NCBI GenBank assembly: GCA_963716175.1
Contig: OY970296.1
Location: 3,712,001-3,776,000, forward strand
Length of the DNA: 64,000 nucleotides
Origin: an uncultured Armatimonadetes bacterium
GTDB taxonomy: Bacteria > Armatimonadota > Hebobacteria > Hebobacterales > Hebobacteraceae
Direction: 5' to 3'
Shown piece by piece: positions 3,357-57,536 of this stretch. Made by a program: the position numbers and the translations under genes. A model generated the notes under the pieces. That model made no database searches. It saw only the letters and a list, made by a program, of their open reading frames with translations, and had not been told where the DNA came from. Within the stretch, counting starts at the first letter, position 1; the number at the start of each line of letters is the position of its first letter.

Positions 3357-4373
3357 CTAATACCCGTCGCGATGCCACATCACCGGGATGGGGGACCGGA
3401 AGAGGTGCTCGATCGCATCATCCTGGTCCCGAAAGCCGGCCCGCCGAATCCATTCACCATTCGGGACCAGCACCATCAGCCCCGGGCCGACCTCGACCTG
3501 CACCGGAACCCGCTGGCGCTCCAGCAGGTTGAGCACCGGGGCATCGCCTCCCATCTGCAAGATCGCTCGGCCCCCGCCGCTTTTCAGGAACTGCTGGGCC
3601 GCCTCCCGCAGTAAGGTGACAGCCCCCTGCTCGTGACGGCGGAGATGCGCCAGCTCGGTCACCGAGAGGTGCCTCTGCTCTGGGGGACTATGGGCGGCCA
3701 GGTAGGCCACACGCTGGCCGTTCACCACTCCCACCAGCCCGCAGGCATCAAGCTGGGCAGAGAACCCATAGGGGAACGTGCCCCGGCGCGGCCAGGTTTC
3801 CCAGGAGCGCAGATCGCGCACCTGCATCCCGGTGCGGCCCTGGCTGTACTGATGGTAAATGGCGGCGAGCGCGGGCCAGTCCCGGTTGTAGTCGAGTTTC
3901 TCGATAGTGCAGGGAGCTTCGATCTCCAACCGCGCCAGCGCGCTGGCCGGACATTCGAAGCCGTCCACCTTGGGCACTTCGCGGAATCCGAAGCGAGCAA
4001 AGAAGCCGGGGACGCGGGTGGTGAGCATCGCCAGCTCGTAGCCGCGCTGGCGTATCAGGCGGAGCAGATCCTGGATCACCCGGGTGCCGAAGCCGCGGCG
4101 TTGGTAGAAGGGATGGGTGGCCACCGCGGTGATGCCAGCGACTATGACTATCTGGTTACCCACATAGACCGCGCGATGGAGCGCCACCGCCTCGGCCACG
4201 ATGACGCCATCGAGCAGGCCCACCCGCACCCGGTCGGGGTGGAAATAGGGATCGTTGACCAGGGAGTTGCGGACGATGGTGAGGCTGTGCTCGTCCACCC
4301 CAAAGGCGGCCTGGAAACAGGACAGGAACCCGTCCAGCTCGCCTTTCTGCAGCCCTCGGACTTGGAATGCCAT
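3357..4373 (-). CDS. GNAT family (Eis-like) N-acetyltransferase
   Basis: AGITAVATHPFYQRRGFG acetyl-CoA motif, FFARFGF; two-lobed length of 338 aa. Confidence 0.8.
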   Translation of the reverse strand: MAFQVRGLQKGELDGFLSCFQAAFGVDEHSLTIVRNSLVNDPYFHPDRVRVGLLDGVIVAEAVALHRAVYVGNQIVIVAGITAVATHPFYQRRGFGTRVIQDLLRLIRQRGYELAMLTTRVPGFFARFGFREVPKVDGFECPASALARLEIEAPCTIEKLDYNRDWPALAAIYHQYSQGRTGMQVRDLRSWETWPRRGTFPYGFSAQLDACGLVGVVNGQRVAYLAAHSPPEQRHLSVTELAHLRRHEQGAVTLLREAAQQFLKSGGGRAILQMGGDAPVLNLLERQRVPVQVEVGPGLMVLVPNGEWIRRAGFRDQDDAIEHLFRSPIPVMWHRDGY

Positions 4374-26049: not shown

Positions 26050-26132
26050 GCCGGTGTGGCGGAATGGCAGACGCGCCTGACTCAAAATCAGGTGGGGGCA
26101 ACCCCGTGGGGGTTCGACTCCCTCCACCGGCA
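26050..26132 (+). tRNA. tRNA-Leu (anticodon CAA), CCA not encoded
   Basis: GCCGGTG/CACCGGC acceptor stem, D-loop GGAATGGCAGAC, anticodon arm CCTGA-CTCAAAA-TCAGG, long variable arm, T-loop GTTCGACTC. Confidence 0.97.
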
Positions 26133-51738: not shown

Positions 51739-51796
51739 ATCACAGTGCACAAATGCCTGTGATACGTCTTGACATTAGCGCAAAATGTGGCACAAT
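51739..51796 (+). promoter_or_regulatory. Divergent promoter region with inverted repeat
   Basis: ATCACAG-11 bp-CTGTGAT (51739-51763) just upstream of TTGACA (51769-51774) and TG-n-CACAAT (51791-51796); AT-rich island. Confidence 0.55.
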
Positions 51797-51837
51797 ATGT
51801 ATTGGCTACTAATGACGCCAGGCACTGGAGGCCAGCG

Positions 51838-53355
51838 ATGACGAGGAAAAGGGCAGCTAGGGAAGAGACGAGCGAGGACATGGTCAGTCTGGACGAGGCG
51901 GCCGGCGTGCTCGGGGTGAGCCGGTCCACTCTTCAGCGGATGCTGAAGCAGGGCAACGTCCGCGGCTTCAAGGTGGGCCGCCAGTGGCGGTTTCGGCGCG
52001 GCGACCTGGACAAGTTCAGCCGCATGACGCACCCGTCGGCGGCCGCGGTGAACGTGACTGAGCTTGACAGCGCGTTCGCCGACTTCCAGGCGCAGCTGAA
52101 AGGGCCGTCCGAGTTCAAGTTCGATCCCTCCATCCCCGGCTACCCCGCCGCCGAGGAGGAGCAGGCGATTGAGCGGGCGATCAAGGCCATCCTCTTCGCG
52201 GCTGTGGCGGCCGGCGCGACTGATGTCCACATCGACGCCGAGCGCCGCGAGACCGTGGTCCGCCATCGCATAGATGGCGTGCTGCACGAGTTGATGCACA
52301 TTCCGGCCGCGGTCCACAAAGCTCTGGTAGCTGGGATCAAGGTTCATGCAGGCATACCGGTGGGTCAGCCACAGACCAACCAGGACGGGCGCTTCCGAGT
52401 GCGCTGTGACGGCAAGGAGTTCGATCTCCGCACCGCCACCATGCCGGCCATATTCGGGGAGACTGTGGTGATGAGACTTCTCGATCAGAAGGCCTATGTC
52501 CCCACCCTTGACGACCCTCACCTCGGCATGGCGGCGCGGGACCTGGAGCGGTTCAAGCGCGCCCTCGTCGCCCCCATGGGCCTGATCATCGTCTCAGGTC
52601 CCAGCGGCTGTGGGAAGACCACTCTGCTCTATGCCGGTTTGCAGCAAGTGATCGGCCCGGAGAAGAAGACCATGACGGTTGAGGACCCAGTGGAGCTCTC
52701 TTTTCACTGGGCCACTCAGGCCGCGGTGAATGTGAAAGCCGGCTTCACCTATGAGCACGCGGTCAGGGCGCTGATGCGACATGATCCGGATGTGGTTATG
52801 ATAGGGGAGCTGCGCACTCTCCCCGTGGCCGAGATGGCCTGCCAGATCGCTCTCACCGGCCACTTGGTGATGAGCGTGCTACACGCCTCCACCGCGGCGG
52901 GAGCGATTCAGCGGCTCCTCGAAATGGGTGTCGAGCCGTTCATCCTGTCGGAGAGTCTGCTCTGCGTAGTGTCCATGCGCCTTGCGCGAAGGGTCTGCCC
53001 GGAGTGCGCCCAGCCTGATCAGCCACCGTTCCACCTGCTCTCCCCGTTAGCCGAGCGCGCCCGCGCCGGGGGATATGAGCTGCCGGAGGCCCCGGAGTTC
53101 CTGAAGGGAGCGGGCTGTGAGCACTGCCGCGGCGGTGGCTACCGCAACCGCATGGGGCTTTACGAAGTAATGGAACACAGCCCGGAGATTGATCGCCTGA
53201 TCGTCTCCCGCGCCCCGGCCGAGGCGATTCGCGACGCGGCCGTCAAGACTGGCATGACTACCCTCACTGCCGACGGCTTACGCAAGGCCGCCGAGGGGAT
53301 CACCACGGTGGCGGAAGTGGCGCGGCTGCTTCCCCCTGGCCAGCCCGAGGCTTGA
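51838..53355 (+). CDS. Excisionase-like HTH (HTH_17) fused to GspE/PilB-family secretion ATPase
   Basis: VSLDEAAGVLGVSRSTLQRMLKQGNVRGFKVGRQWRF; ATDVHI, QDGRF, Walker A GPSGCGKTT, Asp box TVEDPVE, Walker B VVMIGE, His box TGHLVMSVLH, CPEC/CEHC; GGAGG RBS. Confidence 0.9.
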   Translation: MTRKRAAREETSEDMVSLDEAAGVLGVSRSTLQRMLKQGNVRGFKVGRQWRFRRGDLDKFSRMTHPSAAAVNVTELDSAFADFQAQLKGPSEFKFDPSIPGYPAAEEEQAIERAIKAILFAAVAAGATDVHIDAERRETVVRHRIDGVLHELMHIPAAVHKALVAGIKVHAGIPVGQPQTNQDGRFRVRCDGKEFDLRTATMPAIFGETVVMRLLDQKAYVPTLDDPHLGMAARDLERFKRALVAPMGLIIVSGPSGCGKTTLLYAGLQQVIGPEKKTMTVEDPVELSFHWATQAAVNVKAGFTYEHAVRALMRHDPDVVMIGELRTLPVAEMACQIALTGHLVMSVLHASTAAGAIQRLLEMGVEPFILSESLLCVVSMRLARRVCPECAQPDQPPFHLLSPLAERARAGGYELPEAPEFLKGAGCEHCRGGGYRNRMGLYEVMEHSPEIDRLIVSRAPAEAIRDAAVKTGMTTLTADGLRKAAEGITTVAEVARLLPPGQPEA

Positions 53356-53380
53356 CAACGAAGGAGGGCTGTGATAGCGT
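53352..53380 (+). promoter_or_regulatory. Sigma70-type promoter for the ABC transporter leader
   Basis: TTGACA-17 bp-TAGCGT with extended -10 TG, overlapping upstream stop codon. Confidence 0.55.
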
Positions 53381-53409
53381 CAATCTGGCTGACTAGCGAC
53401 AGAACTATA

Positions 53410-53617
53410 GCAGCACTGCAGGGCTAACGCGACCTCAGCCCGTGACGCGCCTGCTTCCGGCCATTCGGCAGTCTGAATGGCGCGAAGCGGGCGCGTTTCC
53501 CTCTCGTGCTGCGGAGCCCACGAGCACTGCTGAATCATAGCGGTGCAAGAACTCGGAGGTCGGGGGCTTCGTCTAACCTTCCAGAGCCAGGGCAGGACCC
53601 GACACGCTCGTGGAGAG
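53410..53617 (+). ncRNA. Candidate structured cis-regulatory RNA (unrecognised family)
   Basis: Multiple nested helices with G-U pairs and alternative pairings over the RBS (see findings). Confidence 0.45.
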
Positions 53618-53625
53618 CGCAGGCA

Positions 53626-55863
53626 TTGACCGCATCACCGACACTACCACCATCAGTGCAGCGCTTGATCGGGGAGAAGTCCCCGGGCGCTGAGGCACAG
53701 GTGACCACGCGGAGCGACCTGGCGCCGGACGGCAAGTTCGGCGAGCAGTGGCTCGCGCTCGCCGGCGATCGCGTGCTGGTCTGCGCGCCCGATGGCGTGG
53801 AGGCGACGCTGCTGGTGGAGCTGCCGCTGGCCGACATCAGCGAGGTGGAGATCGAGAACCTGGTGGGCGGCGCGGTGCTGCGTGCGGTGCTCAAAGACCA
53901 CAAGGTGGACCTGATCGCCTTCACCAACGCGCAGGCGGACGAGTTCGGCCGGGTGCGGTCTCAGCTCGACGCCGCGGCCAAGGGTAAGCCGATCCCGCAG
54001 CCGGAGGTCAAGCCCAAACGCTGCCCGACCTGCGGGCTGGTGCTGGGTGAGGATACCCGGGTCTGCCCTCGCTGCTCGCGCAGAGGGGCGACGCTACGCA
54101 GACTGCTGGGGTATGCGAGACCCTATCGCGGGAGGTTGATCCTGACCGGAGGCTTGATGCTGGCCGGCGCCGCGTTCGGGCTGCTGCCGCCGTATCTTAC
54201 GAAGCTGCTTGTGGATAGAGTGCTGGCCCCCAAGTCGCCGGCGGACCAGTTGTTCGCACGCCAGCACGGCATCAGCCTCTTGGGATGGCTGGTGCTGGCC
54301 CTGGCGGCGAGCAGCATCCTCAGCACCGTTCTCCAGGTGTGGCGCAACCGGCTCACCGGGTGGCTGGGCGGCAGGGTCAGCTTCGACATTCGCGCCACCC
54401 TCTACGAGAAGCTGCAGTGGCTGTCCCTGCGCTATTACGACCGCCACTCCACGGGCGCGATCATCTCCCGACTGACCCAGGATTCGGGCGGAGTTCAGGA
54501 TCTGCTGGCCTTCGGCTTGCCTTTCCTGGTGACAAACCTGATCACGATCGTCGGGGTGTCCGCGGTGATTTTCGTGAAGAACTGGCAGCTGGCGGCGCTT
54601 GCCATCGTCCCCGCGCTTCTGGTCAGCATGGGCACGCGCCCGCTGTGGGAGAAGATGCGGAAGGCCTTCCATGCGTTCTGGTATCGTTGGGGCCGGTACC
54701 ACAGCCTGGTGAACGATGCGCTCAACCGGGTCAAGATCATCAAGGCCTTCTCCCAGCAGCCCATGGAGCTGCAGCGCTACAGCATCCGCAACGCCGATCT
54801 GATGGGCGCGTCGGTGTACGCAGAGCAGACCTGGGGCACCATCTTCCCGCTGCTCTGGCTGCTGATCGGCAGCGGCTCGCTGCTGGTGTGGTACTTCGGG
54901 GGCATCATGACCGTCCACGGCACGCTCACCCTGGGCGACCTGATGATGTTCCTGGGATACCTGGGGATGCTCTACGGCCCCCTGAACTTCCTGACGAACG
55001 TGGTGCAGTGGGTGTCGCGCGCGCTGACTGCCGCGGACCGCATCTTCGAGGTGCTGGACGCCGAGTTCGAGAGCGAGAAAACCAAGGGCGAAGTCGTGCC
55101 CGACCGCATCCACGGCGCGGTGGAGTTCCGCAACGTCGTCTTCGGGTATGAGAAGCATCAGCCGGTGATCAAGGACGTGTCGTTCAAGACGGAGCCAGGG
55201 CACATGCTGGGCCTGGTCGGCAAGAGCGGCGTTGGCAAGAGCACTGTCATCAACTTGCTCTGCCGGTTCTACGACGTAGACGAGGGTGAGATCCTGGTTG
55301 ACGGCATCAACTTGCGCGACCTCTCTCTATGGGCCTACCGGGGCCGGTTGGGCGCCGTGCTCCAGGAGCCGTTCCTCATCGCCGGCACCATCGCCGAGAA
55401 CATCGCTTACGGCAAGCCGGAGGCCAGCTTCGAGGAGATCATGGCCGCCGCCAAGCTGGCGAATGCGCACGATTTCATCGTCAACAAGCCGGATGGCTAT
55501 GACGAGCAGGTCGGCGAGCACGGCCACCGGCTCTCGGCGGGAGAGAAGCAGCGCGTGTGCATCGCTCGCGCCATGCTCCACGACCCCGCTATTCTGATTC
55601 TTGATGAGGCCACTGCGAACGTGGATCTGGAGACGGAGGAGCAGATCCAGCAGGCGATCGCCCGCCTGGTAGAGGGTCGCACCACCTTCGCCATAGCTCA
55701 CCGCCTGTCCACCCTGCGCAACGCCGACAAGCTGATGGTGATGGAGGAAGGGAAGGTGGTGGAGTTCGGCACCCACCAGGAACTGGAGGAAAAGAAGGGC
55801 GTGTACTACAATCTCCTCGACCTCCACCGCAAGACCTCCATGATGGAGGCCGTAGATGGATAG
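53626..55863 (+). CDS. ABC transporter ATP-binding/permease with N-terminal extension and CxxC-CxxC ribbon
   Basis: TTG start after GGAGAG; CPTC...CPRC; ABC membrane domain; GKSGVGKST, LSAGEKQR, ILDEAT, IAHRLST. Confidence 0.92.
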   Translation: MTASPTLPPSVQRLIGEKSPGAEAQVTTRSDLAPDGKFGEQWLALAGDRVLVCAPDGVEATLLVELPLADISEVEIENLVGGAVLRAVLKDHKVDLIAFTNAQADEFGRVRSQLDAAAKGKPIPQPEVKPKRCPTCGLVLGEDTRVCPRCSRRGATLRRLLGYARPYRGRLILTGGLMLAGAAFGLLPPYLTKLLVDRVLAPKSPADQLFARQHGISLLGWLVLALAASSILSTVLQVWRNRLTGWLGGRVSFDIRATLYEKLQWLSLRYYDRHSTGAIISRLTQDSGGVQDLLAFGLPFLVTNLITIVGVSAVIFVKNWQLAALAIVPALLVSMGTRPLWEKMRKAFHAFWYRWGRYHSLVNDALNRVKIIKAFSQQPMELQRYSIRNADLMGASVYAEQTWGTIFPLLWLLIGSGSLLVWYFGGIMTVHGTLTLGDLMMFLGYLGMLYGPLNFLTNVVQWVSRALTAADRIFEVLDAEFESEKTKGEVVPDRIHGAVEFRNVVFGYEKHQPVIKDVSFKTEPGHMLGLVGKSGVGKSTVINLLCRFYDVDEGEILVDGINLRDLSLWAYRGRLGAVLQEPFLIAGTIAENIAYGKPEASFEEIMAAAKLANAHDFIVNKPDGYDEQVGEHGHRLSAGEKQRVCIARAMLHDPAILILDEATANVDLETEEQIQQAIARLVEGRTTFAIAHRLSTLRNADKLMVMEEGKVVEFGTHQELEEKKGVYYNLLDLHRKTSMMEAVDG

Positions 55864-55904: not shown

Positions 55905-55980
55905 ACTGCACAACGTCAGGCCGTGGCCGGCGCATTTCATGCGAGGGCGTGGTGCGGCCAGCCAGCAGGTAGGCTATGAA

Positions 55981-56514
55981 ATGGGCTCTAGCCAGCAATC
56001 GCCGCCAACCAAAGAGCCGTCCACGCTTCGCTACCTCGACCCGGAGCAGGTGAAGGTATTCCGGGGCGAGGAGGGCGGGCTCTACGCCACCATTGCGGAC
56101 GAGTTCACGGTGCTCTCGCCCCGCTTCGTCCGCGCCCGCCCCTTGAGCGATCCCGACCGCTATCTGTCCATCCGAGGGCAGGAGCCCGGGGGCAAGGAGT
56201 TCGGGCTGCTTCCCCAGTGGCACCGCCTGGATGGGGAATCGCGCCGGCTGGTGCAGGCCGAACTGGAAAGGCGCTACCTCCATCCCACGGTGGGCCGCAT
56301 CCTATCCCTGAAGGACTACGCCGGTCTCCAGCTCTGCCTGCTGGAGACCGACCGAGGGGTGCGGGAGGTCACCTTTCGCGATGCCCGGGACAACGTGGTG
56401 TACCTGGGGGCCTCGCGAGTGCTGATCACCGATGCTGAGGGCAACCGCTACGACATTCCCGACATCACCGCCCTGGACCGCAAGAGCCGGGCCCTGCTGG
56501 CGCTCATCCTCTAG
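55981..56514 (+). CDS. DUF1854 domain protein
   Basis: VRARPLSDPDRYLSI, ELERRYLHP, ETDRG, ITDAEGNRYDIPD..LDRKSR; usual partner of this ABC family. Confidence 0.85.
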   Translation: MGSSQQSPPTKEPSTLRYLDPEQVKVFRGEEGGLYATIADEFTVLSPRFVRARPLSDPDRYLSIRGQEPGGKEFGLLPQWHRLDGESRRLVQAELERRYLHPTVGRILSLKDYAGLQLCLLETDRGVREVTFRDARDNVVYLGASRVLITDAEGNRYDIPDITALDRKSRALLALIL

Positions 56515-57536
56515 CCTCGCGCCAGGGCCTGATACCCCTCCTGCGCCTGCAGCACCTCGATGAAGGCGAGCATGTTCTCCAGGGGCACGTCGCCCTCCAC
56601 ATCATGCGCCGGCGCGAAGACGTATCCGCCCTCCCGGCCCAGGTCCAGCAGGTGCGCGGTGGCGGCTCTCACCTCCGCGACTGACCCGTAGGGGAGCGTC
56701 CTCTGGGTGGAGAGTCCGCCGTGAAATGCCAGCCGGCCCCGATACTGCCTGATCAGAGCATCCACGTCCATCACTTCGGGCTGGAACGGGTTGAAGCAGT
56801 TCAGGCCGATGGCAACCAGGTCGTCGAACAGCTCGTCCACATCCCCGCAGGAGTGGATCATCACGCGCTTGCCGGCCTCGCGCACGACACCGTACATCCG
56901 CTTGAGCGCGGGATAGATGAAGTCCCGCCAGATCGGCGCTCCCATCTGGAGACCACGCTGCTGGCCCCAGTCGTCCCCGAAGTAGATGGCGTCAATGTCG
57001 TGATCGAGCGCCGCCCGGAGGTGGGCGATATTGTAGTCGGCGATGGCGTTCAGCAGCTCGTGCACGAAACCGGGGTGGTCGTGGAAATCCATCAGCAAGC
57101 TTTCCATCCCGCGCAGCGTCCAGGCGCGCTCGTAGAGCGAGAACCCGATCGAGAACACGCGGAAGCGATCGGGATAGCGCGCGATCGAGTCGGGGATGGG
57201 GTCGAAGATGCGAGGGTCCCGTGGGTCCGGGAACCGATAGCCCTTCAGGGTCGGCTCTGGCAGCACGCGCCCCCTGACATTGCCGATGTCCTTGTCTATG
57301 CTTCTGTCCCAGATCACCCCGAAGGCGTCCTGCACCAGGTCGTCACCCAGATCGGTGAAGAAGCCGATGGGATTGCCCAGCTCCACGAAGTGGTTCTGAA
57401 GCGCGGGCTCGAGGTCGGCCTGGCCGAAGTGCTGCTCCAGCTTCTCCCGCGCCTCCTTGGTGAACCCAAGCTGCCAGGGCACATAGAGCGGCCGCTGCCA
57501 GCCCAGGGCCAGCTTCACCACCTCCCGCTTGGTCAT
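56511..57536 (-). CDS. Uroporphyrinogen decarboxylase family (MtaA/CmuA-like) protein
   Basis: LYERAWTLRGME, FGDDWGQQ, HSCG, FHGGLSTQ, GGYVFAPAH, VPLEN. Confidence 0.85.
   Translation of the reverse strand: MTKREVVKLALGWQRPLYVPWQLGFTKEAREKLEQHFGQADLEPALQNHFVELGNPIGFFTDLGDDLVQDAFGVIWDRSIDKDIGNVRGRVLPEPTLKGYRFPDPRDPRIFDPIPDSIARYPDRFRVFSIGFSLYERAWTLRGMESLLMDFHDHPGFVHELLNAIADYNIAHLRAALDHDIDAIYFGDDWGQQRGLQMGAPIWRDFIYPALKRMYGVVREAGKRVMIHSCGDVDELFDDLVAIGLNCFNPFQPEVMDVDALIRQYRGRLAFHGGLSTQRTLPYGSVAEVRAATAHLLDLGREGGYVFAPAHDVEGDVPLENMLAFIEVLQAQEGYQALARG

What the first reader, a model, noticed from the sequence alone, without database searches (positions are those of the whole stretch)
53387..53628. 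~240-nt structured leader with switch-like alternative pairings over the RBS of an ABC transporter-DUF1854 operon (candidate novel riboswitch)
Seen: after a TTGACA-17-TAGCGT promoter: P1 GCAGCAC(53410-16)/GTGCTGC(53506-12) closes a junction with GGGCT/AGCCC (53421-41) and a 14-bp stem (53444-57/53484-97, two G-U) capped by GCCATTCGG/CTGAATGGC. A second domain CCACGAGC(53518-25)/GCTCGTGG(53606-13) encloses GCACTGCTG/TAGCGGTGC and GTCGGG/CCCGAC and buries the start of the GGAGAG RBS. Two competing pairings exist: CGACCTC in the first hairpin loop (53430-36) is complementary to GAGGTCG (53556-62), and CTCGTG (53503-08) can take CACGAG (53519-24), freeing the RBS. I could not match it by eye to SAM, TPP, FMN, B12, lysine, T-box, c-di-GMP, ydaO, ykkC, SRP, RNase P or tmRNA consensus. 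Inference: translational riboswitch/attenuator or an independent ncRNA.
Basis: partly seen in the sequence, partly recalled or inferred. Interest (0 to 1): 0.7.

Follow-up and report, generated by a model that had tools for sequence, protein, structure and literature searches.

The report
New riboswitch-like leader before resistance-type genes
The first 113 bases of this leader belong to a previously undescribed, multi-copy family of structured RNA leaders that sit right behind their own promoter and in front of drug-modifying-enzyme-like and exporter genes, and probably switch those genes on by blocking a built-in transcription terminator.

Summary
The finding is real, but it is smaller than described and its anatomy differs. 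Only window 53386-53498 is a conserved RNA element. It has 5 copies in this genome and occurs in 16 of 31 genomes of the class. A metagenome scan returned 80 loci and gave 80 more full-length copies. In all there are 120 unique sequences, and none matches an Rfam 15 family.

Conserved parts:
- a sigma-70 promoter at a fixed distance
- P1, GGCUGA(53387-92)/UCAGCC(53435-40)
- an A-rich junction
- invariant GCAGG..CGCG

GCAGG+CGCG can pair with CGCGCCUGC, the 5' half of that hairpin. This is an antiterminator or pseudoknot alternative.

So are the second domain and its "switch" pairings. The second domain folds no better than shuffles.

First downstream genes are GNAT and Eis-like acetyltransferases, methyltransferases, APH-like kinases, nucleotidyltransferases and ABC exporters.

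Best reading: a new transcription-attenuating, probably ligand-sensing ON-switch leader. The ligand is unknown.

The parts
53352..53357 (+). -35 box TTGACA. It overlaps the TGA stop (53353-55) of the upstream PilB-like ATPase gene.
   Evidence: Read. TTGAC is at the equivalent place in 121 of 121 unique copies.
53375..53380 (+). -10 box TAGCGT, 17-nt spacer. The predicted transcription start is at about 53386-53387.
   Evidence: Read. The -35/-10 pattern is present in 120 of 121 copies, and the -10-to-element distance is fixed in 109 of 120. The start site is inferred, not mapped.
53386..53498 (+). Conserved leader element, the full match to covariance model R1.
   Evidence: 108.4 bits, E = 2e-20. 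Fold z = -5.07. 5 copies in the genome.
53387..53392 (+). P1 5' strand GGCUGA, at the very 5' end of the transcript.
   Evidence: Pairs with 53435-40. 3 of 6 pairs change on both sides and 99.7% of cells are paired. Variants include GGCUGG/CCAGCC, GGUUGA/UCAACC and GGCCGA/UCGGCC.
53393..53409 (+). Conserved A-rich junction, CU-AGC-GACAGAAC-UAUA. Family consensus: CC-nnn-GAcAAAAC-n-AUA.
   Evidence: Alignments A3, A4 and A6. No pairing partner was found.
53410..53417 (+). Variable segment, the P2 site. Some relatives carry a hairpin insertion here.
   Evidence: L067, L068, L233 insertions.
53418..53431 (+). 5' strand of the alternative (antiterminator/pseudoknot) helix: GCAGG (53418-22), a 5-nt bulge GCUAA (53423-27), then CGCG (53428-31).
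   Evidence: This helix forms in the MFE of the nascent RNA 53386-53456. 99% of cells are paired. Compensatory variants are seen in L208, L210, L327, L056, L070 and L071.
53435..53440 (+). P1 3' strand UCAGCC.
53446..53454 (+). CGCGCCUGC, a shared strand. It pairs either with GCAGG..CGCG or with the 3' strand of P3.
   Evidence: It is nearly invariant, while its P3 partner varies: U-A 28, U-G 21, other 6; G-C 35, G-U 17, other 3.
53444..53497 (+). P3, a terminator-like hairpin. Basal 14 bp 53444-57/53484-97; 2x2 internal loop; apical 9 bp 53460-68/53473-81; loop 53469-72.
   Evidence: Covariation in 16 of 23 pairs and 12 of 23 pairs.
53496..53507 (+). U-rich tail UUUCCCUCUCGU (6 U in 12 nt).
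   Evidence: Family mean is 5.9 T per 12 nt, against 2.1 in random windows of the same loci. At least 5 T occur in 101 of 120 copies, against 4.6% of 5,991 random windows.
53499..53611 (+).
   Evidence: z = +0.19. It is absent from the paralogues and unlike the spacers of orthologous ABC leaders.
53612..53628 (+). Shine-Dalgarno GGAGAG (53612-17) and probable start codon TTG (53626-28) of the ABC gene.
   Evidence: alignment of homologue N-termini.
53626..55863 (+). ABC exporter gene: an N-terminal extension with no Pfam match, then ABC_membrane, then ABC_tran.
   Evidence: Pfam.
55939..56514 (+). DUF1854 gene, the usual partner of this type of ABC exporter.
   Evidence: Pfam. bioRxiv 10.1101/072470, passages read.

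Best explanation
Window 53386-53498 is one member of a previously undescribed family of promoter-proximal, cis-acting leader RNAs. The family controls read-through of a built-in intrinsic-terminator-like hairpin (P3 plus a U-rich tail).

Proposed sequence of events:
1. Transcription starts about 7 nt after the -10 box, so the RNA begins with the P1 strand GGCUGA.
2. As the RNA emerges, GGCUGA pairs with UCAGCC (P1).
3. The invariant GCAGG..CGCG segment, which lies inside P1, can pair with CGCGCCUGC just downstream of P1. Together with P1 this has the strand order of an H-type pseudoknot. The conserved A-rich junction (GAcAAAAC.AUA) is available to line a groove or a pocket.
4. CGCGCCUGC is also the 5' half of the much more stable P3 hairpin, so the two structures are mutually exclusive.
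5. By default P3 forms and transcription stops near 53498-53507.
6. An effector that stabilises the pseudoknot during transcription keeps CGCGCCUGC occupied. Polymerase then reads on through the 114-nt spacer into the ABC-DUF1854 operon. This is an ON switch.

The effector is most likely a small molecule. Because the family sits before acetyltransferase, methyltransferase, kinase, nucleotidyltransferase and exporter genes, it is plausibly a toxic or xenobiotic compound, or a signal of antibiotic stress.

What is shown: the family, the promoter, P1, P3, the U-rich tail and the coherence of the downstream genes.
What is partly shown: the alternative helix.
What is inferred: termination, the ON polarity and ligand binding.
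For: - Family. There are 5 full-length copies in the genome. Hits occur in 16 of 31 genomes of the class. The metagenome scan gave 80 full-length matches in 79 of 80 loci returned, making 120 unique sequences.
- Structure. P1, P3 and the alternative helix are supported as set out under the observation check and parts. G-U pairs are frequent, which fits only this strand.
- Alternative helix. It appears in the MFE of the nascent RNA. Changes on both strands are seen in L208 (GUAGG/CCUAC, where the same A is mismatched in P3), L210 (CAGCC/GGCUG), L327 (CGCC/GGCG), L056 and L070 (GCC/GGC) and L071 (UGCC/GGCA). Hairpin insertions fall exactly in its bulge (L206, L207, L245) and in the P2 site. The shared strand is nearly invariant while its P3 partner varies.
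- Terminator-like tail. See the U-rich tail under parts.
- Promoter at a fixed distance in 120 of 121 copies.
- Cis role. Every copy where sequence was available is followed by a co-oriented ORF.
  - 53 first downstream ORFs from genomes: Acetyltransf_9 11, ABC_membrane 10, methyltransferases 8, Acetyltransf_1 8, DUF4037 3, APH 2.
  - 64 independent ORFs from metagenomes: Acetyltransf_1 12, Acetyltransf_9 10, methyltransferases 9, ABC 6, APH 5, DUF4037 3.
  - Upstream neighbours are heterogeneous: 68 families among 103 ORFs, with no transcription-factor family in the top 25.
- Expression. An RNA-library contig that is 100% identical covers 53405-53555, that is, through P3 into the spacer. This is weak, because DNA carry-over is not excluded.
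- Strain variants fall at non-conserved positions. 53394 T>C restores the consensus CC.
Against: - No ligand, no binding data, and no mapped 5' or 3' ends.
- The alternative helix is almost invariant, so formal covariation is thin: 2 of 9 pairs change on both sides in alignment A6.
- Two copies break one of its pairs. In L233 (CCGGC) the change is compensated in P3 but not in the alternative helix. In L283 (CCUAC) it is mismatched in both.
- Copies such as L232 and L290 lack the CGCG 5' segment.
- The strict terminator scan calls nothing in the window. The window's tail has only UUU directly after the stem. About 19 of 120 copies have fewer than 5 T in 12.
- The family's sequence diversity is low (effective sequence number 1.7-2.4). 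Part of the conservation may therefore reflect recent common descent.
- The downstream enzymes use different cofactors and probably different substrates, which is unusual for a single-ligand riboswitch.
Confidence: 0.6

Rival explanations
1. The RNA family and the terminator/antiterminator are the same, but the effector is a macromolecule rather than a small molecule. It could be an RNA-binding antiterminator protein, a ribosomal subunit or protein, a tRNA, or RNA polymerase itself. In the last case it would resemble put- or EAR-type elements, which act just behind a promoter.
For: - The promoter-to-element distance is fixed in 109 of 120 copies. That is unusual for riboswitches and is reminiscent of elements that act on polymerase soon after initiation (from general knowledge).
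- The regulon is diverse in cofactors and substrates, which fits a general stress signal better than a single metabolite.
- The invariant GCAGGA contains an SD-like AGGA.
Against: - No recurrent regulator gene lies next to the copies: 103 upstream neighbours fall in 68 families, with no transcription-factor family in the top 25.
- The pseudoknot-like core, with many invariant unpaired bases and variable-length peripheral insertions, is the usual signature of ligand-binding aptamers (inference).
- There is no conserved start codon or uORF inside the element.
Confidence: 0.2
2. One reading: a roughly 240-nt two-domain translational riboswitch. Its second domain buries the GGAGAG RBS, and switching goes through CGACCTC/GAGGTCG and CTCGTG/CACGAG.
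For: - The complementarities exist in the sequence.
- The full-length MFE uses GCAGCAC/GUGCUGC and pairs part of the region before the RBS.
- One strain variant, 53609 C>T, would keep a G-U pair with 53522.
Against: - The second domain gives z = +0.19.
- It is absent from the 4 paralogues and unlike the spacers of the orthologous ABC leaders.
- The proposed P1 and the GGGCT/AGCCC hairpin are not conserved: 1 of 120 copies has the GCU needed.
- The conserved partner of AGCC is the 5' GGCUGA.
Confidence: 0.08
3. An independent, multi-copy small RNA of about 113 nt, with its own promoter and its own terminator, acting in trans. Its position upstream of genes would be incidental, or secondary to that role.
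For: - Complete promoter, structured RNA and terminator-like end.
- 2-12 matches per genome.
- Terminated riboswitch leaders are known to act in trans in other bacteria (general knowledge).
Against: - Every copy is co-oriented with, and 16-263 nt upstream of, an ORF.
- The downstream genes are functionally coherent in two independent sets, while the upstream genes are not.
- No second promoter for the downstream genes was noticed.
- An RNA-library contig reads through P3 (weak).
Confidence: 0.07
4. A DNA-level repeat, either a mobile promoter cassette or a protein operator, with no RNA-structural function.
For: GGCTGA...TCAGCC is an inverted repeat in DNA. The promoter always travels with the element.
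Against: - Compensatory changes keep base pairing rather than a half-site consensus.
- G-U pairs are abundant, and on the other strand they would be A-C mismatches.
- Insertions are hairpins placed at loop or bulge sites.
- There are no matches on plasmids or viral contigs.
Confidence: 0.03

Closest known systems
Pseudoknot-type ON riboswitches whose 3' pseudoknot strand overlaps a terminator (fluoride/crcB, ZTP/pfl, guanidine-III, preQ1 and SAM-II style H-type folds). Recalled from general knowledge.
   Same: - The strand order is P1-5', helixB-5', P1-3', helixB-3'.
- The shared strand is also the 5' half of a terminator-like hairpin.
- The downstream genes look like detoxification or export genes, which suits an ON switch.
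   Different: - No sequence or covariance-model similarity: no Rfam hit.
- The conserved nucleotides are different.
- The promoter distance is fixed.
- The ligand is unknown.
- The pseudoknot is inferred, not probed.
Guanidine-IV (mepA) riboswitch and its orphan variant Gd4v (PMC9788692; abstract and passages read).
   Same: - Terminator-embedded ON-type architecture with a pseudoknot.
- Association with GNAT acetyltransferases and exporters.
- For Gd4v the ligand is still unknown.
   Different: - Those motifs are two hairpins joined by a loop-loop pseudoknot. Here a 5'-terminal P1 encloses the 5' strand of the alternative helix.
- Those occur in Actinobacteria, Bacteroidetes and Firmicutes, and Gd4v is mainly from gut samples. 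This family comes from an uncultured diderm lineage in sediment and wetland metagenomes.
- Their commonest genes are sugE, mepA or an aminotransferase, none of which was seen here.
HMP-PP (thiS) riboswitch with a 'terminator-embedded aptamer' (PMC6478431; title and abstract seen in a search listing only).
   Same: Conserved, functionally constrained nucleotides lie inside the terminator stem itself.
   Different: The fold, genes and ligand logic are different, and that one is an OFF switch for a biosynthetic gene (recalled).
WhiB7 regulon of mycobacteria (PMC10727445; listing and abstract only) and leader-peptide attenuators of resistance genes (Dar et al. 2016 Term-seq; seen only as a reference entry).
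   Same: Both offer co-ordinated control of Eis-like acetyltransferases, methyltransferases, exporters and other drug-modifying-type genes. Relatives of this ABC operon also carry a short uORF, MMKLRTR*, after the element.
   Different: - WhiB7 is a protein activator, and no WhiB-family gene was found in this genome.
- The 113-nt element has no conserved uORF.
- Control here is by a cis RNA copied in front of each operon.
The proposed aminoglycoside-sensing leader RNA of aac/aad integron cassettes (Jia et al. 2013; recalled, not read here, and disputed in the literature).
   Same: A leader RNA in front of aminoglycoside-modifying-enzyme-type genes.
   Different: No sequence relation is known. 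That leader works on translation. Nothing here shows aminoglycoside binding.

Membership tests
Any described RNA family (Rfam 15, 4227 models, including the riboswitch classes, T-box, 6S, SRP, RNase P and tmRNA) | Covariance-model score at or above the family's gathering threshold | tested here: not met
   - Window at gathering threshold: only a tRNA at 26050-26132.
- 53250-53750 with permissive filters: best hits 9.5-14 bits, E = 2-9.1.
- 14 related loci: 0 hits.
Riboswitch (generic) | Conserved, covarying structure in the 5' UTR | tested here: met
   P1 has changes on both sides in 3 of 6 pairs and P3 in 16 of 23, with 0 of 500 shuffles reaching the observed score. The independent set gives 12 of 23 for P3. 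The alignments were fitted to P1+P3, which favours that structure.
Riboswitch (generic) | Association with a coherent set of downstream genes | tested here: met
   GNAT, Eis-like acetyltransferases, methyltransferases, APH, nucleotidyltransferases and ABC exporters, in two independent sets. Upstream genes are heterogeneous.
Riboswitch (generic) | Expression platform with mutually exclusive pairings | tested here: inconclusive
   The alternative helix is 99% paired but nearly invariant. Six divergent copies compensate and two copies carry a mismatch.
Riboswitch (generic) | Direct, selective binding of a small molecule | not testable with these tools
   Needs in-line probing, ITC or transcription assays.
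Intrinsic (Rho-independent) terminator | GC-rich hairpin directly followed by a U tract | tested here: inconclusive
   The strict scan finds 0 sites in 53000-54000, and the window's tail has 6 U in 12 nt. At family level the tail is strongly U-enriched.
Sigma-70 promoter | -35 and -10 hexamers 16-18 nt apart | tested here: met
   The window has TTGACA-17-TAGCGT. The scan tool rejects the weak -10 box, but the pattern is conserved at a fixed distance in 120 of 121 copies. The start site is not mapped.
Leader-peptide (ribosome-mediated) attenuator | Conserved short ORF with an SD inside the leader | tested here: not met
   No conserved start codon or ORF in the 113-nt element (alignment). A uORF exists only in the extra spacer of some relatives' ABC leaders.
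Guanidine-IV / Gd4v | Two hairpins joined by a loop-loop pseudoknot with the family's conserved nucleotides | tested here: not met
   No Rfam hit. That Rfam 15 holds a guanidine-IV model is recalled, not checked. The architecture described in PMC9788692 differs from P1 + junction + P3.
rRNA-site mimic (decoy of a drug-binding rRNA site) | Local similarity of the conserved core to the organism's own 16S rRNA | tested here: not met
   blastn-short against the genome's 16S gives only 7-11-nt chance matches, mostly in non-conserved positions of the element. 23S was not tested.

The most novel reading that the evidence does not exclude
The family is a new riboswitch class that directly senses an antibiotic-like or xenobiotic compound, or a metabolite that signals antibiotic stress. 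One cis-RNA copy sits in front of each operon. Together the copies co-ordinate an intrinsic 'resistome' in an uncultured diderm lineage that lacks WhiB: Eis-like and other GNAT acetyltransferases, APH-like kinases, nucleotidyltransferases, methyltransferases and ABC-DUF1854 exporters. This would be an RNA-only functional analogue of the WhiB7 regulon. It would also be a natural RNA sensor for a drug-like ligand, built as a 5'-terminal pseudoknot that competes with a terminator.
Probability: 0.25. Interest if true: 0.9.

Novelty: new variant of a known kind. Interest (0 to 1): 0.75.

Why it matters
- A new orphan class. If it is a riboswitch, this class has more than 100 unique representatives. 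The genes it controls point to a ligand outside central metabolism. Finding that ligand would say what these widespread, unannotated acetyltransferases, kinases, methyltransferases and ABC-DUF1854 exporters act on.
- An RNA-run resistome. It would also show that a whole resistance-like regulon can be run by copies of one cis-RNA instead of a protein regulator. Natural antibiotic- or xenobiotic-sensing riboswitches have long been sought, and the one published claim is disputed.
- An unusual architecture. The promoter sits at a fixed distance and P1 lies at the very 5' end, which may say something about co-transcriptional folding.
- Practical value. The covariance models built here annotate about 5 leaders per genome in this lineage. 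They also correct the anatomy that a reading of the single sequence suggested.

Tried and rejected
- Exact-pattern scan of genome contigs (CAGCCCN{3,4}CGCGCCTGC).
- Taxon. I tried to narrow it with marker families. DUF1501 was absent, WhiB absent and Omp85 present. That gives a diderm that is not an actinomycete and probably not a planctomycete. The phylum is still unknown. The protein-atlas taxa are only leads.
- rRNA-mimic idea. blastn-short of the element against the genome's own 16S gave only chance matches. 23S was not tested.
- A pairing partner for the variable triplet after GGCUGACC, and a consistent P2 hairpin. None was found by eye in alignments of 57 and 120 sequences. No formal mutual-information scan was run.
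- A correlation between ACGCG/ACGC-A and GACGCG/YGCGCG looked structural, but it is not absolute (for example L269 and L237). It is probably due to descent.
- NCBIfam on 10 regulon proteins: nothing reached a curated cut-off. The PDB sequence search linked only the Acetyltransf_9 protein to Eis, weakly (E = 3.9e-5). The nucleotidyltransferase and the APH-like protein had no PDB relative.
- Plasmid (PLSDB) and viral-contig searches for the element found nothing.
- Outside the class the element is sporadic: 2 of 41 and 1 of 31 genomes in two other classes.
- Literature. Four full-text searches and five papers examined by term search found no description of such a motif. Supplementary files, which hold most motif lists, could not be read.
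- Read laying. Contigs cannot show RNA ends. The parts of the leader without RNA cover are not evidence of anything.


Full report
WHAT WAS CHECKED FIRST

The region was read. Rfam 15 gives no family for the region. At gathering thresholds the window's only hit is a tRNA at 26050-26132. With permissive filters on 53250-53750 the best hits are 9.5-14 bits at E = 2-9.1.

Fold energies:
- The 254-nt leader folds with z = -2.5 on the + strand (3 of 200 shuffles fold as well).
- The - strand gives z = -0.78.
- 53386-53500 alone gives z = -5.07 (0 of 200).
- The 'second domain', 53499-53640, gives z = +0.19 (115 of 200).

THE DECISIVE OBSERVATION: A REPEATED, CONSERVED ELEMENT

A BLAST of the leader against the window's own genome (4.56 Mb, one contig) found three further copies of only the first ~110 nt. 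Aligned, all four share a TTGAC(A) -35 box, a -10-like box and the 5' sequence GGCTGAC. They also share a long stem whose apical part differs by compensatory changes.

Model R1 was built from 31 copies in related genomes. Results:

| Search | Result |
|---|---|
| Own genome | 5 full-length copies (98-108 bits) |
| Class | 16 of 31 genomes; families f1 11/14, f2 1/1, f5 2/2, f3 1/12, f4 0/1; up to 12 matches per genome |
| Even sample of the phylum | 10 of 151 genomes, 8 of them from the class |
| Two other classes (model R2) | 2 of 41 and 1 of 31 genomes |

A pattern that specifies only the 5' half was scanned over metagenome contigs. It found 114 stretches and 80 loci were returned. In 79 of those 80 loci the full element, including the unspecified 3' half, matched R1, giving 80 matches. 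Altogether there are 136 sequences, of which 120 are unique. None of 14 related loci has an Rfam hit. There are no matches on PLSDB plasmids or IMG/VR contigs.

ANATOMY OF THE FAMILY

Window coordinates are given in brackets.
1. Promoter: TTGACA (53352-57), 17 nt, TAGCGT (53375-80). The pattern holds in 120 of 121 unique copies. The spacer is 17 nt in 88 copies and 18 nt in 31. The -10 box ends 6 nt before the GG in 109 of 120. The RNA therefore very probably begins at 53386/53387, directly with P1.
2. P1: GGCUGA (53387-92) with UCAGCC (53435-40).
3. Conserved junction: CC-nnn-GAcAAAAC-n-AUA (53393-53409).
4. A variable stretch. In some copies it carries a hairpin insertion.
5. Invariant GCAGG (53418-22), a variable 3-5-nt bulge, then (A)CGCG (53428-31). 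In L206, L207 and L245 the bulge carries a hairpin.
6. After P1: CUUGA, then CGCGCCUGCUU, which opens P3. P3 runs 53444-97, with 14 basal bp, a small internal loop and 9 apical bp.
7. A U-rich tail.

COVARIATION

On the 56 genome copies:
- P1 is 99.7% paired, and 3 of 6 pairs change on both sides.
- P3 is 93% paired, and 16 of 23 pairs change on both sides.
- 0 of 500 column shuffles reach the observed score.
- Sliding the partner columns drops pairing from 94% to 36-49%.

On 68 distinct metagenome copies, P3 has changes on both sides in 12 of 23 pairs. P1 was fixed by the search pattern there and says nothing. These alignments were fitted to P1+P3, so they lean towards that structure. The first, MAFFT-only alignment gave the same picture. 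Divergent copies add P1 variants: GGCUGG/CCAGCC, GGUUGA/UCAACC and GGCCGA/UCGGCC.

THE SWITCH

GCAGG..CGCG is the near-copy of the 3' strand of P3 (GCAGGCGCG) and can pair with CGCGCCUGC. The minimum-free-energy fold of the nascent RNA 53386-53456 forms exactly this helix. In alignment A6 its 9 pairs are 99% paired, but only 2 show a change on both sides, because both strands are almost invariant.

Informative exceptions that support the helix:
- L208 has GUAGG with CCUAC. The same A is mismatched in P3.
- L210 has CAGCC with GGCUG.
- L327 has CGCC with GGCG.
- L056 and L070 have GCC with GGC.
- L071 has UGCC with GGCA.

Exceptions that count against it:
- L233 (CCGGC) is compensated in P3 only.
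- L283 (CCUAC) is mismatched in both structures.
- L232 and L290 lack the CGCG 5' segment.

A further argument is the asymmetry inside P3. The strand CCUGC is invariant, while its P3 partners vary and often wobble (U-A 28, U-G 21, other 6; G-C 35, G-U 17, other 3). This is expected if the strand has a second, stricter partner. With P1, the strand order is P1-5', B-5', P1-3', B-3', that of an H-type pseudoknot. This topology is inferred.

TERMINATOR-LIKE END

The 12 nt from the last pairs of P3 onward hold 5.9 T on average, against 2.1 in random 12-nt windows of the same loci. At least 5 T occur in 101 of 120 unique copies, against 4.6% of 5,991 random windows (first count). The window's tail is UUUCCCUCUCGU. 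The strict scan tool calls no terminator there.

GENES

The first co-oriented ORF starts 16-263 nt after the element.

Genome set: 57 copies. Three had no ORF in the sequence held, and one 76-aa ORF was dropped as spurious, leaving 53 scanned. Metagenome set: 80 copies. Six had no ORF, 68 ORFs were distinct and 64 were scanned; four near-duplicates were dropped.

| Pfam family | Genome set (of 53) | Metagenome set (of 64) |
|---|---|---|
| Acetyltransf_9 | 11 | 10 |
| Acetyltransf_1 | 8 | 12 |
| ABC_membrane | 10 | 6 |
| Methyltransferases | 8 | 9 |
| APH | 2 | 5 |
| DUF4037 | 3 | 3 |
| NTP_transf_2 | not in the shown tally | 2 |
| PPDK_N, nitroreductase, radical SAM | 1 each | nitroreductase 1 |

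The five copies in this genome precede:
- the ABC-DUF1854 operon (this window)
- a GNAT gene, followed by a methyltransferase gene
- an NTP_transf_2 protein
- an Acetyltransf_9 protein, whose only PDB sequence relative is Eis (E = 3.9e-5)
- a protein of 489 or more residues without a Pfam family

No NCBIfam model reaches its cut-off, so none of these is a named resistance gene. The resemblance is at the level of enzyme classes.

Upstream neighbours are heterogeneous: 103 ORFs fall in 68 families. The commonest are SIS (7) and T2SSE (4), and no transcription-factor family is among the 25 shown. DUF1854 proteins are thought to be subunits of such ABC exporters (bioRxiv 10.1101/072470, passages read).

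THE WINDOW'S OWN COPY

The ABC gene most likely starts at TTG 53626, 8 nt after GGAGAG. The conserved N-terminal motif of homologues (LPESVQRLIADK in L202 and L287) aligns with LPPSVQRLIGEK, seven codons later. A start at GTG 53506 would have no SD and would run through the U-rich tail.

The 114 nt between the element and the SD are not shared with the paralogues. They do not resemble the spacers of orthologous ABC leaders.

In several related genera the spacer instead holds a hairpin, an SD and a 7-codon uORF, followed by a long GC-rich stretch. The uORF reads MMKLRTR*, MMRLPTR*, MMKLCNR*, MMKLLTN* or MEKLRTF*. The K/R-L-R pattern recalls the arrest motif of macrolide-sensing leader peptides mentioned in PMC8632094 (passage read). 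This supports an antibiotic-related role for the operon in relatives, but it is not present in the window.

EXPRESSION AND POPULATION DATA

The stretch occurs in sediment, freshwater-sediment and wetland metagenomes, so the organism is uncultured. In one metatranscriptomic run, two 151-nt contigs match at 99-100% identity. One covers 53405-53555, through P3 into the spacer, and the other covers 53856-54006. This is compatible with read-through transcripts, but DNA carry-over cannot be excluded and contigs show no ends.

Strain variants in DNA contigs lie at non-conserved places: the -10/start linker, the bulge 53423-25 and the P3 loop 53470. 53394 T>C restores the family consensus. Many short foreign contigs pile up only on 53418-53464, and their loose ends read like other family members (table 7).

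The genome has an Omp85 gene and no WhiB or DUF1501 genes. Its phylum could not be named.

INTERPRETATION

The best-supported reading is a cis-acting transcription-attenuation leader of a new family.
- By default the very stable P3 plus U tail stops transcription.
- Stabilising the P1/GCAGG..CGCG pseudoknot keeps CGCGCCUGC away from its P3 partner and lets polymerase read on.

The many invariant unpaired bases and the peripheral variable insertions make a small-molecule ON riboswitch the most likely version. The lack of a linked regulator gene and the detoxification/export-like regulon point the same way.

The main rival is a macromolecular effector. The fixed promoter distance is unusual for riboswitches and could mean an interaction with the transcription complex.

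What is inferred rather than shown: termination, polarity and ligand.

PRIOR KNOWLEDGE

Full-text searches did not turn up this motif. The search topics were riboswitch candidates with GNAT or ABC genes, orphan riboswitches with acetyltransferase or aminoglycoside, and riboswitch candidates with intrinsic terminators. Term searches inside the large motif surveys also found nothing (PMC5737381, PMC8632094, PMC11109978, bioRxiv 10.64898/2026.10.21.760802). Their supplementary motif lists could not be read, so an unnamed listing there cannot be excluded.

The nearest published case in spirit is the Gd4v/guanidine-IV pair (PMC9788692). It is terminator-embedded, linked to GNAT genes and exporters, and the Gd4v ligand is unknown. 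Its architecture, phyla and main genes are different.

VERDICT

The element is best filed as a new family within a known kind: a terminator/antiterminator leader and riboswitch candidate.

Noticed in passing
L060:1616-1830, L063, L072, L065, L203, L069 (spacer between the element and the ABC gene in related genera): A conserved hairpin, an SD (GGGGGAGA) and a 7-codon uORF lie between the leader element and the orthologous ABC gene. A long GC-rich structure follows. The uORF reads MMKLRTR*, MMRLPTR*, MMKLCNR*, MMKLLTN* or MEKLRTF*. The K/R-L-R pattern resembles macrolide-arrest leader peptides. This looks like a second, ribosome-mediated attenuator in series. It is not present in the window.
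   Followed up: partly
window 53626-54150: The ABC exporter has an N-terminal extension of about 170 residues without a Pfam family. It holds a conserved SDLxPDGxFGEQWLALAGDRVLV block and a CxxC...CxxC motif (CPTCG...CPRCS) ahead of the membrane domain. The protein-atlas neighbours are unnamed hypothetical proteins.
   Followed up: partly
window 51769-53355: The upstream gene is a T2SSE (PilB/GspE-like) ATPase with an N-terminal HTH_17 domain. Its TGA stop lies inside the -35 box of the leader's promoter. T2SSE is the upstream neighbour in 4 of 103 loci, so this synteny is partly conserved.
   Followed up: no
G000:C1:2062715-2062825 (-) and 2069493-2069603 (+); L214:1254-1365 and 3372-3483: Copies of the leader sometimes lie a few kb apart: 6.7 kb in this genome, and 2 kb in a metagenome contig where each precedes a GNAT paralogue. 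This suggests small islands of regulated genes.
   Followed up: no
L038:1644-3110; L267:5973-7826; L270:451-2172: A recurrent regulon member of roughly 490-620 residues has no Pfam family. It follows the fifth copy in this genome and has homologues in metagenomes. Its function is unknown.
   Followed up: partly
L210:501-602 (G005:C79): A degenerate copy lacks P1 (no GGCUGA/UCAGCC). It keeps the promoter, an A-rich stretch, a compensated alternative helix (CAGCC..CGCG / CGCG GGCUG) and P3 plus a U tail. It precedes a TrmK-like methyltransferase-type ORF. This hints that the terminator/antiterminator pair is the minimal core.
   Followed up: partly
window 53380-53538 (-) and 53506-53625 (+): Open frames overlap the leader: a 52-aa ORF on the minus strand, and an in-frame 40-codon extension of the ABC ORF from GTG 53506. 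Neither has an SD or any conservation. Both are probably by-products of the high G+C content.
   Followed up: partly
window 56511-57536 (-) and 26050-26132 (+): A URO-D-family gene converges on the DUF1854 gene. A tRNA gene is the window's only Rfam hit.
   Followed up: no
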